From an uncultured Candidatus Saccharibacteria bacterium (lineage in GTDB: Bacteria > Patescibacteriota > Saccharimonadia > Saccharimonadales > CAYVSP01), in assembly GCA_964446365.1 (NCBI GenBank), contig CAYUOI010000001.1:1-43087 (forward strand): DNA of 43,087 nt, read 5' to 3'. This document shows, piece after piece, positions 14,757-18,097 of the stretch (the stretch's first letter is position 1; every line of letters begins with the position of its first letter). A program made the position numbers and the translations under genes. Under the pieces are notes generated by a model. The model had not been told where the DNA came from. It searched no databases and saw nothing but the letters and a program-made list of their open reading frames with translations.

Positions 14757-16358
14757 ATGTCACAAGATGCGCGACTCGATGAAGAGCAGGCTACGCAGCG
14801 CCGCGCGTTAATCCTTGGCCTGACTTATTTTGACACATCGTCCTTAGGCGATAAACCAATCTATAAAGATCTTTTACCGGTTGCCGAGATGTACAAACTA
14901 CGCGTGATTCCGCTAACCGCTGATAAAAGTAATATTTTATTTGGCATCACCAACACGACGTCTCAAGCAACCATGAGCAGACTGCGGCAGCAATTTCTGG
15001 ATCAGCGCATAGTTTACGCTTTGATTTCTGAAACCGGCTACCACGACTATATGAAGCTATACGACCCGCCGAAGCAGGTGACATACCAGGATATAAGCGT
15101 AGCGTCGTTTAAAGCCAGTGACGGCTTTGAAAATGTCTCAGCTACGTTGGCGCAGGTCAGGGCGGATGACCTTTTGGCCTATCTTGTTAAGCAGGCCTAT
15201 CAGCTAAAGGCTTCGGATATTCATCTCGAATGCCAGGAGCACATGGTTAGAGTCAGATTGCGTGTTGATGGCGTCTTGCACCCAATTGCTCAGCTTACGC
15301 ATGAAAAATATCGGCAGCTTCAGTCATCGGTGGCTATAGCGGCTAACGTTTCTACAGGCGCGCCGGAACCGCAGACCGGACACATCAACAAGGATTACAA
15401 CTTAGCTACCGGCGAAAAAGTTAACGTAAACCTACGTGTTGAAACCGTTCCAGCGGCATTCGGTCAAGACATTGTTATGCGCCTTTTTACGCTACGTATG
15501 GAGCTATTGAAGCTGGATAATCTTGGCTTGAATAAGGCCGAACGGGAAGTAGTTGATGACGTTATAAAACACCCTACCGGCATGGTTTTGGTGGTCGGTC
15601 CAACCGGATCCGGCAAAACCACCACTATGTACTCACTCATAAATACGTTGAATAGCCCGGAACGCAAGATAGTAACGCTAGAAGATCCGATTGAATACTA
15701 CATGCCCGGTGTCGTCCAGGTTCCAGTGCACGGCGATGAAGACAAAACCGGTTTTGCCGATAAATTGAGGGCAGTTTTACGGCTGGATCCTGATGTAGTA
15801 ATGATTGGCGAAATTCGCGACGAAGATACCGCCCGGACGGCCTTGCAATCGGCACTGACCGGCCACCTTGTCATGAGCACCTTCCATGCCTACTCGGCGG
15901 CAGCAGCATTAACGCGTATGCTTGACGCCGTTGGTATAAATCCGTTGTTCGCTTCTGCCATGCACTTAATTATGGCGCAGCGTTTAGTGCGTAGATTGGA
16001 TGACGCCACCAAACAGGCCTACCAGCCCGACGACGCTCTCATAAAACAGTTGCAACCAATAATTGACAGTTTGCCCAAGAGTGTCGAAAAACCGGACTTA
16101 AAGAAAGTAACTTTATATCGATCCGGCCAGTCGGCCGAAAACCCGTTTGGTTATCGCGGACAGATGTCGCTGCGAGAACAACTTCGCATGACTCCGGGTG
16201 TGCAGCAGATATTACGACTGCCGCCTAACCAGGTAACCACCGAGTTGATTCAGCAAAAAGCCGTCGAAGACGGTATGTTAACAATGCTTCAAGACGGACT
16301 ATTAAAGGCCATAGCCGGCTTAACATCTCTCGAAGAGATTTACCGTGTAGTCGGCTAG
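14757..16358 (+). CDS. pilB: GspE/PilB-family secretion or type IV pilus assembly ATPase
   Basis: 533 aa with an N-terminal T2SSE_N-like domain, Walker A GPTGSGKTTT, VMIGEIRD and the His box TGHLVMSTFH. PilB cannot be separated from GspE by sequence alone. Confidence 0.88.
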   Translation: MSQDARLDEEQATQRRALILGLTYFDTSSLGDKPIYKDLLPVAEMYKLRVIPLTADKSNILFGITNTTSQATMSRLRQQFLDQRIVYALISETGYHDYMKLYDPPKQVTYQDISVASFKASDGFENVSATLAQVRADDLLAYLVKQAYQLKASDIHLECQEHMVRVRLRVDGVLHPIAQLTHEKYRQLQSSVAIAANVSTGAPEPQTGHINKDYNLATGEKVNVNLRVETVPAAFGQDIVMRLFTLRMELLKLDNLGLNKAEREVVDDVIKHPTGMVLVVGPTGSGKTTTMYSLINTLNSPERKIVTLEDPIEYYMPGVVQVPVHGDEDKTGFADKLRAVLRLDPDVVMIGEIRDEDTARTALQSALTGHLVMSTFHAYSAAAALTRMLDAVGINPLFASAMHLIMAQRLVRRLDDATKQAYQPDDALIKQLQPIIDSLPKSVEKPDLKKVTLYRSGQSAENPFGYRGQMSLREQLRMTPGVQQILRLPPNQVTTELIQQKAVEDGMLTMLQDGLLKAIAGLTSLEEIYRVVG

Positions 16359-16394
16359 CAACTACCTTAGCTATGTAGTATGGTATAAACCATT

Positions 16395-16850
16395 ATGGTC
16401 CGATCAGCAGGTAGAGGTTTTGCTCACAGCAATCCATCAGCAGTCTACGAAGTAGAAGTGACCCCCACAAGAGAGGTTAGGGAACGCGGACAGGCCGAGT
16501 TCAGAGAACAGTTGTTCGGCACGCCGCCTGAAGCCAGCCTATCAGTCGCAGCTACTCCTATAGAGCCCTATGTAGAGAACCCTAAAGCCAACTGGCGGCA
16601 GCGTGGTGCATGTCGGGTTCCGGGCGGGCTACTGGACATTTTCTTTTCGCCAAGCGGCAGGGAATATGACGATGAGAGGCTGGCGCGAGAATCGACAGCT
16701 AAGCAGATATGTGCCAGTTGTGTTGTTAGGGAGGAGTGCTTAGATGAAGCTCTGGCAACGCGCGAACCGCATGCCATTTTGGGTGGACTAACCTGGAACG
16801 AACGCAGAGACATACTCGGTATTAAACGCCGTGGCCGAAAATCAGCCTGA
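16395..16850 (+). CDS. WhiB-like (Wbl) [4Fe-4S] transcription factor with a ~65-aa N-terminal extension
   Basis: The C-terminal 85 aa align motif-for-motif with M. tuberculosis WhiB1 as recalled: WRQRGACR, DIFFSP, AKQICASCVVREECLDEAL, GGLTWNERR. It has four Cys with C-x32-C-x2-C-x5-C spacing and a basic tail, KRRGRK. An extended -10 (TGGTATAAA, 16381-16389) lies 5 nt upstream of the ATG. Confidence 0.85.
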   Translation: MVRSAGRGFAHSNPSAVYEVEVTPTREVRERGQAEFREQLFGTPPEASLSVAATPIEPYVENPKANWRQRGACRVPGGLLDIFFSPSGREYDDERLARESTAKQICASCVVREECLDEALATREPHAILGGLTWNERRDILGIKRRGRKSA

Positions 16851-16898: not shown

Positions 16899-18032
16899 CT
16901 AAACTATAACTTTAGCAATGGCCGGGACCAGGCGTTTTTCCAGAACGCTGGGAATAATGCAGTCGGACGTAGGCTTTTTAACAAGACCGGCGATGGCTTT
17001 AGCAGCGGCTATTTTGTGCTGGTCGGTTATTTTGCTTATGCGGTTATCCAGTGCCCCGCGGAAAACGCCCGGGAAGGCCAGGGCATTATTGATTTGGTTG
17101 GGAAAGTCGCTTCTTCCGGTTGCTACAATTGCCGCGCCTGCTTTCTTGGCGATATCCGGCATAATTTCCGGAACAGGGTTGGCCATGGCAAAAATTATCG
17201 GATCCTTATTCATAAGTTTTATGTGGTGTTCATTTAACAAATTGGCTTTAGATACACCAATGAAAATATCAGCGGCTTTGAGGGCTTCATCGGCACCGCC
17301 GCTTACATTTTGTTTGTTGGTAAATTTTAGCAACATCTTTTTATCCGCGTTCAAGTCCTGGCGGTCTTTGCTGATGATGCCTTTACTATCGATGACTAAA
17401 ATCTCAGGCTTGGCAAACTCATATATTAGCTTCATCACGGCCGTGCCGGCAGCGCCGGCGCCTACACAGACTATTCGGCAATCTGATAGTTTACGTTCGG
17501 TAACTTTCATAGCGTTTATCAGCCCGGCTAGGACAACGATAGCCGTGCCGTGCTGATCATCGTGCATAACCGGAATTTTCAGGGCAGCCTTGACGCGTTC
17601 TTCGACTTCAAAGCAGAGCGGGGCCGCAATATCTTCTAAATTAATACCTCCGAAGCTGGGGGCAATGGCTAACACGGCAGCCACAATTTCATCAGCGGTA
17701 TGTACATCCAATACTATCGGCACGGCGTCTATGCCGGCAAAGTGCTTAAAAAGCATGGCTTTACCTTCCATTACCGGCAGAGCGCCATAAGGTCCGATAT
17801 CACCCAAGCCTAGCACGGCTGAGCCGTCTGAAATAACCGCCACTGAATTATTAAGCCAGGTATACTCTCGCGCCTCATTGGGATGGTCAGCCACGTAGCT
17901 AGAGACGGCGCCTACTCCAGGCGTGTAATAAACGCTTAGCTTGTCTTTGCTATCCAGTTTGTCTTTAAGTTGAACGGCGATCTTGCCGCGCAGTTTTTTG
18001 TGACGCTTTAAAGCCTCTTTGGCGTAATCCAT
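16899..18032 (-). CDS. NAD(P)-dependent malic enzyme (short form)
   Basis: It carries GLGDIGPYGALPVMEGK and the Rossmann motif VCVGAGAAG. The longest ORF starts at 18065. I prefer the ATG at 18032 (MDYAKEALK...) because an extended -10, TGTTATAGT (18039-18047, minus strand), lies 6 nt upstream of it. Confidence 0.9.
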   Translation of the reverse strand: MDYAKEALKRHKKLRGKIAVQLKDKLDSKDKLSVYYTPGVGAVSSYVADHPNEAREYTWLNNSVAVISDGSAVLGLGDIGPYGALPVMEGKAMLFKHFAGIDAVPIVLDVHTADEIVAAVLAIAPSFGGINLEDIAAPLCFEVEERVKAALKIPVMHDDQHGTAIVVLAGLINAMKVTERKLSDCRIVCVGAGAAGTAVMKLIYEFAKPEILVIDSKGIISKDRQDLNADKKMLLKFTNKQNVSGGADEALKAADIFIGVSKANLLNEHHIKLMNKDPIIFAMANPVPEIMPDIAKKAGAAIVATGRSDFPNQINNALAFPGVFRGALDNRISKITDQHKIAAAKAIAGLVKKPTSDCIIPSVLEKRLVPAIAKVIV

Positions 18033-18097
18033 GCGTTTACTATAACAGATGGTAATTGGTTGCATAAAAGGCGAAGATACTGTAGTATCTATGGGTT

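What the first reader, a model, noticed from the sequence alone, without database searches (positions are those of the whole stretch)
16381..16850. WhiB-like Fe-S regulator in a non-actinobacterial-looking genome, next to the pilus ATPase
The C-terminal 85 residues match Wbl hallmarks closely. WRQRGACR resembles WhiB1 WRHKAVCR, and FFSP resembles FFP. AKQICASCVVREECLDEAL resembles AKLVCNRCPVTTECLSWAL. GGLTWNERR resembles GGMSEDERR. All four cluster-ligating Cys are present.

Wbl proteins are regarded as restricted to Actinobacteria and their phages. The rest of this window does not look actinobacterial: the genome is compact with mid-range GC, and it has GatCAB and CIRCE-controlled clp genes.

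Three features are unusual for a Wbl:
- A roughly 65-aa N-terminal extension.
- Replacement of the conserved Trp in the G[VI]WGG turn by Leu (AILGG). That Trp contacts sigma-A region 4 in characterised Wbl proteins.
- An RGR-containing basic tail (KRRGRK) reminiscent of the WhiB7 AT-hook.

By eye, the ORF is more G+C-rich and uses more AGG, AGA and GGG codons than its neighbours. It nevertheless has a native-style extended -10 and leaderless start.

If the organism is a Saccharibacteria-like epibiont of Actinobacteria, this could be a host-derived regulator. That is speculative.
Basis: partly seen in the sequence, partly recalled or inferred. Interest (0 to 1): 0.6.

Follow-up and report, generated by a model that had tools for sequence, protein, structure and literature searches.

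The report
Resident WhiB-like regulator in a Saccharibacterium
This gene encodes a real WhiB-like iron-sulfur regulator, a family that papers say occurs only in Actinobacteria and their phages, yet here it is an old, native, fast-evolving gene of a Saccharibacterium (a tiny bacterium of a group whose cultured members live attached to Actinobacteria), not a recent import from a host.

Summary
ORF 16395-16850 (+, 151 aa) matches Pfam Whib at E 2.6e-16 and has four ligand Cys (C73, C106, C109, C115). It also has the W67 and F83-F84 aromatic patch, AILGG in place of G[VI]WGG, a 65-aa N-terminal extension and a basic tail. An AlphaFold model superposes on WhiB3 (TM 0.84).

The organism is a Saccharimonadales MAG (Ca.

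A recent host origin is not supported:
- Whib domains occur in 115 of 201 genomes of the order, and almost nowhere else in Patescibacteria.
- GC3 is native (z -0.26). The excess G+C comes from amino-acid composition.
- The gene has syntenic orthologs (DnaE-CAP-SpoU-PilB-Wbl-malic enzyme) in three other Saccharibacterial contigs. One of them also has Leu at the Trp position.
- These form a Saccharibacteria-only clade that is sister to, not inside, the actinobacterial WhiB3/WhiD group.

The likely mechanism, which is inferred, is a [4Fe-4S]-dependent factor that binds sigma region 4. One complication is that all 30 RpoD tails sampled in the order read K-H where other bacteria have the H-P pair that docks into Wbl proteins. 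The partner is therefore uncertain.

This is a new variant of a known kind, of moderate interest.

The parts
16381..16389 (+). Extended -10-like promoter element TGgTATAAA, ending 5 nt before the ATG (leaderless geometry)
   Evidence: Read from the sequence. Orthologs carry comparable elements: TGGTATAAT in L124 and TGTTAGAAT before the second Wbl of L192. Genome-wide, 25% of long genes have a hexamer matching TATAAT at 5 of 6 positions or better, 5-12 nt before the start, against 7% in a shifted control. The generic -35/-10 scan found no full promoter.
16395..16850 (+). Wbl gene, 151 aa plus stop
   Evidence: ORF list. Pfam Whib E 2.6e-16. PDB sequence search puts WhiB3 best at E 2.8e-10. AlphaFold2 mean pLDDT 78.8.
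16395..16589 (+). N-terminal extension (residues 1-65): a short conserved motif (G..NPSA[VM][YF][ED]..T), a predicted helix at 26-41, then a variable linker with pLDDT about 63-64
   Evidence: Ortholog alignment. 27% identity to the L124 ortholog against 54% in the domain. pLDDT and secondary structure. No Pfam hit in this part. No hydrophobic signal-like stretch by inspection.
16593..16811 (+). Whib domain (residues 67-139)
   Evidence: Pfam envelope. Six-frame genome search gives 61.7 bits. pLDDT 90-95 over residues 81-140. Foldseek TM 0.84 and rmsd 2.0 A to WhiB3 8cyf_A.
16611..16739 (+). Span holding the four predicted [4Fe-4S] ligand codons: C73 (16611-16613), C106 (16710-16712), C109 (16719-16721), C115 (16737-16739). 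The aromatic-patch pair F83-F84 (16641-16646) lies inside the span; W67 (16593-16595) lies 5' of it.
   Evidence: W67, C73, F83, C106, C109 and C115 are invariant columns in alignment A1. The roles of the equivalent WhiB1 residues are described in PMC6954389.
16773..16787 (+). A127-I128-L129-G130-G131, a variant of the G[VI]WGG turn (Gly to Ala and Trp to Leu)
   Evidence: Read from the sequence. Trp in 138 of 150 and Gly in 146 of 150 closest representatives. The L124 ortholog has GILGG.
16821..16841 (+). Basic C-terminal tail IKRRGRK
   Evidence: Read from the sequence. Orthologs keep a basic tail (GIKSRRKN, GIKTRK, IRLKRR, IQRR) but not RGR.
14757..16358 (+). Upstream neighbour: orphan PilB/GspE-type (T2SSE) ATPase, 533 aa, 36 nt before the Wbl start
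   Evidence: Pfam T2SSE is recorded on the orthologous genes. Closest relatives are Saccharimonadales at 56-86% identity.
16899..18065 (-). Convergent downstream neighbour: malic enzyme
   Evidence: Pfam malic and Malic_M. Same position in L124, L192 and L194.

Best explanation

Shown:
- The domain, the four ligand Cys, three of the four aromatic-patch residues and a WhiB3/WhiB1-like predicted fold are present.
- The host genome is a Saccharimonadales MAG.
- The gene belongs to a Saccharibacteria-only orthogroup held between an orphan pilB-type ATPase gene and a convergent malic-enzyme gene.
- It has native third-position composition and a native leaderless-type promoter.
- It evolves about twice as fast as its neighbours while keeping its core residues.

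Inferred:
- The four Cys hold a [4Fe-4S] cluster.
- The holo-protein docks through W67 and F83/F84 onto the C-terminal tail of region 4 of a sigma-70-family factor in RNA polymerase.
- The basic tail makes non-specific DNA contacts upstream of the -35 region.
- Oxidation or nitrosylation of the cluster switches this activity, so transcription responds to O2, NO or redox state.

The Leu at the Trp position is a lineage trait shared with the nearest ortholog. It probably tunes cluster reactivity or partner affinity rather than abolishing function. Target genes are unknown. The fixed position after pilB is only a weak hint of a link to that ATPase.
For: - Family and fold: Pfam Whib 60.3 bits. WhiB3 and WhiB1 are the best PDB matches by sequence and by fold. 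The domain has pLDDT 90-95.
- Taxon: the PilB relatives are all Saccharibacteria. The genome is 695 kb.
- Spread across the lineage: Whib is over the cut-off in 115 of 201 genomes of the order and matches in 95 of 152 genera. In a phylum-wide sample of 301 genomes only 11 match: the window's own, 8 of 15 others in the same order, 1 of 2 in the same class, and 1 of the 283 from other classes.
- Native composition: GC3 z -0.26, synonymous-codon score z -1.66.
- Synteny: orthologs in L124, L192 and L194 share CAP-SpoU-PilB-Wbl-malic enzyme-L19, and L192 and L194 also show the DnaE end upstream.
- Rate: identity to the window is 85/61/58% for PilB, 78/79/77% for malic enzyme and 44/35/38% for Wbl.
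- Tree: window plus L124 (90/83) lie within a Saccharibacteria-only clade of six (94/90). That clade is sister to a 26-member actinobacterial clade (97/89) containing a WhiB3 ortholog.
- Leu at the Trp position is shared with L124.
- Sigma contact: WhiB1 F17 and F18 are essential for sigma binding and W60A is tolerated (PMC6954389). An aromatic patch with at least two residues is near-universal in Wbls (bioRxiv 10.1101/2025.06.05.653497).
- A same-family genome encodes a sigma-Wbl fusion (L136). This supports an intracellular sigma-Wbl pairing in this lineage.
Against: - No biochemistry exists for any Saccharibacterial Wbl.
- The presumed partner motif is altered. All 30 RpoD tails sampled in the order read KLRKH[KR]D where other bacteria have KLRHPSRS. 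In M. tuberculosis, H516A, H516F and P517A each abolish WhiB1 binding (PMC6954389).
- The window's own genome is 78% complete and no RpoD was found in it.
- The turn motif deviates at two positions.
- The gene is absent from the pilB-downstream slot in L057, the closest pilB locus found (86% identity). The one Wbl found in the same-genus genome G001 lies near gyrA and is of another type. The gene is therefore dispensable.
- The tree rests on 75 columns, and the actinobacterial sample was enriched for best matches to the query.
Confidence: 0.6

Rival explanations
1. Recent host-derived gene. The Wbl was acquired recently by horizontal transfer from the actinobacterial host (or one of its phages) of this particular epibiont.
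For: The family is otherwise actinobacterial. The ORF is in the top 3% of genes for G+C and is somewhat rich in AGA and AGG. Word-indexed search finds no close homolog other than itself. Some other Saccharibacterial Wbls do sit next to actinobacterial WhiB1-like sequences in the tree (L003).
Against: - GC3 is 48.3% against a genome mean of 50.0% (z -0.26). The extra G+C is explained by Arg, Glu, Ala and Pro content.
- Syntenic orthologs occur in three divergent Saccharibacterial contigs, and synonymous sites are saturated.
- The Saccharibacteria-only clade lies outside the actinobacterial WhiB3 clade.
- The best actinobacterial identity is only 45-49% over the domain.
Confidence: 0.05
2. Host-directed factor. 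The protein acts on the actinobacterial host's primary sigma factor (which carries His-Pro) rather than on the epibiont's own RpoD, in the way actinophage Wbl proteins bind host sigma A. It would reach the host during the epibiotic contact.
For: - The order's own RpoD lacks the His-Pro docking pair in all 30 tails sampled. The Wbl keeps the W/FF patch that surrounds that pair in solved complexes (PMC6954389).
- Evolution is fast and distribution is patchy, as expected of conflict genes.
- Phage Wbls bind sigma A in a His516-dependent way (bioRxiv 10.1101/2025.06.05.653497).
Against: - There is no signal peptide, secretion motif or adjacent secretion gene. The neighbouring ATPase is an orphan, and no transport role for it is shown.
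- The promoter geometry is the same native leaderless type seen at about a quarter of this genome's long genes.
- The sigma-Wbl fusion in a same-family genome keeps His-Pro in its own region 4. This points to partners inside the epibiont.
- No protein transfer from Saccharibacteria into hosts is documented in the papers searched.
Confidence: 0.1
3. Diverged Fe-S protein that no longer acts through the primary sigma factor. It would partner only an alternative sigma-like protein that retains His-Pro, or act as a redox or thiol protein without a polymerase contact, or be on its way to loss.
For: - Two deviations in the turn motif.
- RpoD has Lys-His instead of His-Pro.
- The fused alternative sigma in L136 carries His-Pro in the canonical register.
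- Other occupants of the same slot are visibly degenerate (L053, L048).
- The gene is missing from the closest pilB locus found (L057).
Against: - The ORF is intact.
- All four Cys, W67 and F83-F84 are kept although synonymous sites are saturated.
- The Leu variant is shared by two orthologs whose domains are 54% identical, so it has been maintained.
- The fold is predicted with high confidence.
Confidence: 0.2

Closest known systems
WhiB3 (M. tuberculosis) / WhiD (Streptomyces) subclass of Wbl proteins (PDB 8CYF, 8CWR)
   Same: It is the best match by sequence (E 2.8e-10) and by fold (TM 0.84, rmsd 2.0 A, 39% identity). Cys spacing is the same, the FF-to-Cys loop is of similar length, and the W and FF aromatic patch is shared. 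The window's clade is sister to the actinobacterial clade that holds a WhiB3 ortholog.
   Different: - The subclass-defining Arg-rich DNA-binding motif (RGRAR, with R38 as the DNA discriminator; PMC10245118) aligns with YDDER here.
- The turn is AILGG, not GVWGG.
- There is a 65-aa N-terminal extension with its own conserved motif.
- The organism is not an actinobacterium.
- The lineage's RpoD lacks the His-Pro pair.
WhiB1 (M. tuberculosis; PDB 6ONO, 5OAY)
   Same: It is the second-best match by sequence and fold. The equivalents of Trp3, Phe17 and Phe18 are present. WhiB1 also has a basic C-terminal tail.
   Different: The Trp60 equivalent is Leu. The loop between FF and the CxxC is longer. 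WhiB1 has no N-terminal extension. In the tree, WhiB1-like sequences group elsewhere.
WhiB7 (AT-hook Wbl; PDB 7KIF, 7KUF)
   Same: The tail contains an RGR tripeptide flanked by basic residues.
   Different: The match is weak (E 3e-4; Foldseek E 0.02). The tail is RRGRK, not RGRP, and RGR is not conserved in any ortholog.
Other Wbl genes of Saccharibacteria, including the second copy in this genome (C7, 313 aa, canonical GIWGG)
   Same: Same phylum-level oddity. Whib domains occur in 57% of sampled genomes of the order, often with N-terminal additions.
   Different: Most of them group with WhiB2/WhiB-like or WhiB1-like sequences and keep the Trp. The window's gene belongs to a separate clade, which in four of its six sampled members lies next to pilB and is nearest to WhiB3.
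Actinophage Wbl proteins
   Same: They are the precedent for Wbl genes outside actinobacterial chromosomes, in entities that depend on Actinobacteria. They are reported to use the same aromatic patch.
   Different: The window's gene is chromosomal in conserved cellular synteny. No phage genes flank it.

Membership tests
Wbl / WhiB-like (Pfam PF02467) | Profile HMM match above the curated threshold | tested here: met
   60.3 bits against a cut-off of 23.6, E 2.6e-16, HMM positions 1-64 of 65. 61.7 bits in the six-frame genome search.
Wbl / WhiB-like (Pfam PF02467) | Four conserved Cys (C-Xn-C-X2-C-X5-C) that ligate a [4Fe-4S] cluster | tested here: met
   C73, C106, C109 and C115 are invariant in the 34-sequence alignment and present in 146-150 of 150 representatives. 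Cluster binding itself was not tested.
Wbl / WhiB-like (Pfam PF02467) | G[V/I]WGG beta-turn motif | tested here: not met
   The sequence is A-I-L-G-G. Gly is replaced by Ala (Gly in 146 of 150) and Trp by Leu (Trp in 138 of 150; Leu in 5, including the ortholog P0002). Only I-x-G-G is retained.
Wbl / WhiB-like (Pfam PF02467) | Aromatic patch for sigma region 4 binding (AP1 Trp, AP2-3 Phe-Phe, AP4 Trp), with at least two residues including one of AP2-3 | tested here: met
   W67, F83 and F84 are present and AP4 is Leu, giving 3 of 4. The criterion comes from bioRxiv 10.1101/2025.06.05.653497.
Wbl / WhiB-like (Pfam PF02467) | Wbl fold | tested here: met
   The AlphaFold2 domain has pLDDT 90-95. 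The Foldseek top 13 are all Wbl chains. WhiB3 gives TM 0.84 normalised by target length.
Wbl / WhiB-like (Pfam PF02467) | Binds region 4 of the primary sigma factor through its His-Pro pair | tested here: inconclusive
   No RpoD was recovered in the 78%-complete genome. All 30 RpoD tails from the order have Lys-His where others have His-Pro. Binding cannot be tested with these tools.
Wbl / WhiB-like (Pfam PF02467) | Occurrence restricted to Actinobacteria and actinophages (as stated in the literature) | tested here: not met
   The organism is Saccharimonadales. This is a taxonomic statement in the literature rather than a structural criterion. I still file the protein as a Wbl.
WhiB3/WhiD subclass | [quoted passage not shown] | tested here: not met
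   In the phmmer alignment to 8cyf, R38 aligns with Y91, R40 with D93 and R42 with R95. The motif is defined in PMC10245118.
WhiB3/WhiD subclass | Phylogenetic placement inside the subclass | tested here: not met
   The Saccharibacterial clade (94/90) is sister to the actinobacterial clade (97/89), not nested in it. The alignment is short (75 columns), so this is moderate evidence.
WhiB7 subclass | C-terminal AT-hook RGRP | tested here: not met
   The tail is KRRGRKSA, with no Pro. Ortholog tails lack RGR. The match to WhiB7 is weak.

The most novel reading that the evidence does not exclude
Saccharibacterial Wbl proteins such as this one might not be regulators of the epibiont's own primary sigma factor, whose tail has lost the His-Pro docking pair. 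Instead they would be aimed at the actinobacterial host's sigma A, reprogramming host transcription during epibiosis as actinophage Wbls are thought to do. A softer version is that Saccharibacteria have re-wired the Wbl-sigma interface (Lys-His tail, Leu turn) into a docking mode not seen in Actinobacteria.
Probability: 0.1. Interest if true: 0.9.

Novelty: new variant of a known kind. Interest (0 to 1): 0.55.

Why it matters
Wbl proteins control cell division, virulence and antibiotic resistance in Actinobacteria. Reviews and a December 2025 preprint describe them as exclusive to that phylum and its phages. I found no paper in the searchable library that links them to Saccharibacteria.

Here the family is a long-standing, widespread and diversifying part of Saccharimonadales genomes. 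The cultured members of this group are obligate epibionts of Actinobacteria. This gives an evolutionary link between parasite and host regulators.

It also offers a natural experiment on the Wbl-sigma interface, because the lineage's RpoD carries Lys-His instead of His-Pro and this clade carries Leu instead of Trp.

Finally, it points to a tractable regulator in organisms with very few known transcription factors. This single locus is one more instance of a pattern that this scan has already met many times, which tempers its individual weight.

Tried and rejected
- NCBIfam gave no hit.
- The word-indexed homolog search found only the query itself. The exhaustive phmmer search was needed to find the one full-length relative.
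- dN/dS between the window and L124 could not be estimated because synonymous sites are saturated.
- The generic sigma-70 promoter scan found nothing at the gene. The -10-only leaderless geometry was assessed by a custom count instead.
- The AT-hook reading was rejected.
- Mis-binning and contamination were rejected because of the conserved Saccharibacterial synteny.
- A functional pilus-operon context was rejected: the ATPase is flanked by SpoU and CAP genes, not pilus genes.
- RpoD was sought in the window's own genome with Sigma70_r4 and r2 profiles. Only an atypical 346-aa protein with an r4-like helix-turn-helix was found.
- The unknown ORFs that replace the Wbl in relatives (L044, L057, L048) have no Pfam hit.
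Full report
**What is there**

The + strand carries a 151-codon ORF at 16395-16850. It begins 36 nt after the stop of a 533-aa PilB/GspE-type ATPase gene. It ends 48 nt before the end of a convergent malic-enzyme gene.

- The protein matches Pfam Whib (PF02467) at 60.3 bits, E 2.6e-16. Residues 67-139 cover almost the whole model. NCBIfam has no model for it.
- The four Cys (C73, C106, C109, C115) together with W67 and F83 are invariant in a 34-sequence alignment of relatives.
- An AlphaFold2 model built on that alignment gives pLDDT 90-95 across the domain. Its best structural matches are WhiB3 (8cyf: TM 0.84 normalised by target length, rmsd 2.0 A, 39% identity), then WhiB1, then Streptomyces WhiB.
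- Sequence search of the PDB gives the same order: WhiB3 2.8e-10, WhiB1 1.6e-6, WhiB 1e-5, WhiB7 3e-4.

**Which organism**

The window is contig 1 of a 695-kb, 105-contig assembly that is 78% complete. The neighbouring PilB has its closest relatives (56-86% identity) only in MAGs named Candidatus Saccharibacteria or Saccharimonadales.

**How unusual within that lineage**

It is not unusual in this order.

- Whib domains pass the Pfam cut-off in 26 of 41 close relatives.
- They pass it in 115 of 201 genomes sampled across the order, with matches in 95 of 152 genera.
- In a phylum-wide sample of 301 genomes only 11 match: the window's own, 8 of 15 others in the same order, 1 of 2 in the same class, and 1 of the 283 from other classes.
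- The window's genome has a second copy on contig 7. It is a 313-aa protein with a long unknown N-terminal part and a canonical GIWGG domain.

The open literature I could search still says the family occurs exclusively in Actinobacteria and actinophages (PMC6282962; bioRxiv 10.1101/2025.06.05.653497, version of December 2025). No paper in the library links WhiB or Wbl with Saccharibacteria, TM7, Patescibacteria or CPR in that sense. Earlier notes of this scan record the same phenomenon in many other genomes. I treated those notes as leads only.

**Recent import or resident?**

*Composition.*
- The ORF has 54.5% G+C against a gene mean of 48.7% (z 1.9).
- The excess lies in codon positions 1 and 2. 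GC3 is 48.3% against 50.0% (z -0.26).
- The protein is rich in Arg (12.6% against 5.0%), Glu, Ala and Pro.
- Synonymous codon use is mildly atypical (z -1.66, 6th percentile). AGA and AGG make up 8 of 19 Arg codons against 3.2 expected (p 0.053). GGG is not enriched.
- A gene newly arrived from a high-G+C actinobacterium would show a high GC3. This one does not.

*Orthologs.*
- The word-indexed search found nothing but the query.
- An exhaustive phmmer search of 1.84 billion cluster representatives found 5612 Wbl proteins. Only one was a full-length relative: P0002, 147 aa, 47% identity over residues 7-146.
- P0002 is encoded in a Saccharibacterial MAG contig with the gene order CAP, SpoU methylase, PilB, Wbl, malic enzyme (reverse strand) and, further on, L19, RNase HII, UPF0102 and M1 peptidase. 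This matches the window.
- Two further hits, P0005 and P0009, lie in the same synteny in other metagenomes.
- Identity to the window is 85/61/58% for PilB, 78/79/77% for malic enzyme and only 44/35/38% for the Wbl.
- Synonymous sites between the window and the nearest ortholog are saturated.
- The gene has therefore been inherited in place across deep divergence and evolves quickly outside its core residues.

*Phylogeny* (102 Wbl domains, 75 columns, IQ-TREE).
- The window pairs with L124 (support 90/83).
- The pair lies inside a Saccharibacteria-only clade of six (94/90). That clade includes the other syntenic orthologs and one 362-aa fusion protein.
- The clade is sister to a 26-member actinobacterial clade (97/89). 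The actinobacterial clade contains a clear WhiB3 ortholog (E 6e-53 to 8cyf).
- Other Saccharibacterial Wbls scatter among WhiB1-like and WhiB2-like actinobacterial groups. Well-supported branches force at least six changes of the taxon label.
- Several exchanges between the two phyla, or very old paralogy, are therefore likely. The window's clade is not nested in a modern actinobacterial group.
- Caveats: the alignment is short, the root is unknown, and the actinobacterial sample was partly chosen by similarity to the query.

*Expression signal.*
- TGgTATAAA ends five nt before the ATG and there is no Shine-Dalgarno sequence.
- Orthologs have comparable elements, for example TGGTATAAT in L124.
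- Across the genome, 25% of long genes have a hexamer matching TATAAT at 5 of 6 positions or better, 5-12 nt before the start, against 7% in a shifted control.
- An earlier first-reader note on the same window reports the same geometry.

Together these results reject a recent host origin for this gene. An ancient origin from Actinobacteria or their phages remains plausible.

**The three unusual features**

1. *N-terminal extension.*
   - It is coding and conserved in kind. Orthologs share a short motif near the start (G, then NPSA[VM][YF][ED], then a Thr). Most have an aromatic residue a few positions later.
   - AlphaFold2 predicts a helix at residues 26-41 with pLDDT about 84. A variable linker with pLDDT about 63-64 follows.
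   - It has no Pfam match and no hydrophobic, signal-like segment. Its role is unknown.
2. *AILGG.*
   - Trp occupies this column in 138 of the 150 closest representatives and Leu in 5. The preceding Gly occurs in 146 of 150.
   - The nearest ortholog has GILGG, while the more distant orthologs keep G[IV]WGG. The change arose within this sub-lineage and has been kept.
   - In WhiB1 this Trp (W60) is one of four aromatic residues around the cluster pocket. However, W60A has little effect on cluster stability or sigma binding, whereas F17A and F18A abolish binding (PMC6954389).
   - The window's protein keeps the equivalents of W3, F17 and F18. It meets the published aromatic-patch criterion (bioRxiv 10.1101/2025.06.05.653497).
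3. *Basic tail.*
   - The tail is KRRGRK, not the RGRP AT-hook of WhiB7. RGR is absent from every ortholog, although all have a basic tail.
   - The tail is best read as the generic basic C-terminus of Wbl proteins.
   - The WhiB3-specific Arg-rich loop (RGRAR; PMC10245118) aligns with YDDER here. The protein is therefore not a WhiB3 in the functional sense either.

**Mechanism and the complication**

By homology, the most likely action is as follows. The protein holds a [4Fe-4S] cluster. It docks on the C-terminal tail of region 4 of a sigma-70-family factor. It then modulates promoter use in response to oxidants or NO.

One result complicates this simple transfer of the actinobacterial model. 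In M. tuberculosis, His516 and Pro517 of sigma A insert into the cluster pocket, and H516A, H516F and P517A each abolish WhiB1 binding (PMC6954389).

- No RpoD was recovered from the window's incomplete genome.
- In 30 of 30 RpoD genes from genomes across the order, the tail reads KLRKH[KR]D[AS][KR][KR]LH[DE]YI.
- Ungapped alignments to solved SigA and RpoD chains put Lys-His where those chains have His-Pro.
- A His is thus present one position later and the Pro is gone.
- A same-family genome (the one that holds the L124 ortholog) encodes a 393-aa sigma-like protein fused to a degenerate Wbl domain. That protein keeps His-Pro in the canonical register, about 20 residues before the Wbl Trp.

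This leaves three live options:
- a re-tuned interface with RpoD;
- partnership with alternative sigma-like proteins;
- at low probability, action on the host's sigma A.

I rate the resident, sigma-binding regulator reading at about 0.6.

**The neighbourhood**

The ATPase is an orphan PilB/GspE homolog flanked by SpoU and CAP-domain genes. It is not part of a pilus locus of the kind described for TM7x (PMC11623550).

Among 21 Saccharibacterial pilB loci from reference genomes, the slot after pilB varies in content:
- four (L053, L054, L060, L064) hold a Wbl gene, and a fifth (L048) is a weak match;
- the metagenome contigs L124, L192 and L194 also hold one;
- some of these Wbl genes belong to clades other than the window's, and one contig (L192) has two in tandem;
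- other loci hold unrelated unknown ORFs or nothing.

L057, the closest pilB locus found (86% identity), has no Wbl in the slot. The one Wbl found in the same-genus genome G001 lies near gyrA and is of another type. The pairing is therefore recurrent but dispensable. Whether it reflects regulation of the ATPase or only a permissive insertion site is open.

**Verdict**

This is a genuine Wbl protein. It is the local member of a Saccharibacteria-specific, fast-evolving orthogroup nearest to WhiB3/WhiD. It is native to its genome.

It is a new variant of a known kind. The family and fold are known. The phylum, the conserved N-terminal extension, the Leu turn and the altered partner tail are not described in the literature searched.

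Interest is moderate. The broader pattern is surprising to specialists and directly testable. This locus is one of many instances and no function has been demonstrated.

Noticed in passing
Loci L197-L226 (RpoD genes of 30 Saccharimonadales genomes); L129-L132: The C-terminal tail of the primary sigma factor reads KLRKH[KR]D[AS][KR][KR]LH[DE]YI in 30 of 30 genomes. Solved SigA and RpoD chains of other bacteria have KLRHPSRS here. The His-Pro pair that docks into Wbl proteins is Lys-His in this order.
   Followed up: partly
L136:766-1944 (-), genome G004 (same family; also holds the L124 ortholog): A 393-aa sigma-70-like protein is fused to a degenerate Wbl domain (turn IGTWAD). Its region-4 end keeps His-Pro in the canonical register (RI, 12 residues, HP), about 20 residues before the Wbl Trp.
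   Followed up: partly
L001:817-1758 (= G000 contig 7, about 9.2-10.2 kb): The genome has a second Wbl gene. It encodes 313 aa with a roughly 225-aa N-terminal region that has no Pfam hit, followed by a canonical Wbl domain with GIWGG. It is preceded by a 262-aa unknown ORF and converges with gltX-like tRNA synthetase gene.
   Followed up: partly
Loci L044-L064, L124, L192, L194: the slot between pilB and the malic enzyme or rplS gene: The slot downstream of the orphan pilB is variable. It holds Wbl genes of at least two or three clades, a tandem pair in L192, degenerate Wbl-like ORFs (L053, L048), unrelated unknown ORFs (a Cys-rich 118 aa in L044; a reverse-strand 207 aa in L057), or nothing.
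   Followed up: partly
L127:96-1136 (= G000 contig 43): This is the only sigma-70 region-4-like hit in the window's genome. It is a 346-aa protein with the helix-turn-helix at its N-terminus (residues about 30-70) and a long unknown C-terminal part. Similar frames of about 350 aa recur across the order as secondary hits to the RpoD tail query.
   Followed up: no
L134/L135 (G001 contig 52, same genus): Three sigma-70 r2-containing genes lie in tandem on one contig of the same-genus genome. They are distinct from the conserved RpoD.
   Followed up: no
L013:1480-2568 (-), genome G015: A 362-aa protein has a C-terminal Wbl domain of the window's clade (turn GIWAG) and a long unknown N-terminal region. 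It lies next to a DEAD-box helicase gene rather than pilB.
   Followed up: no
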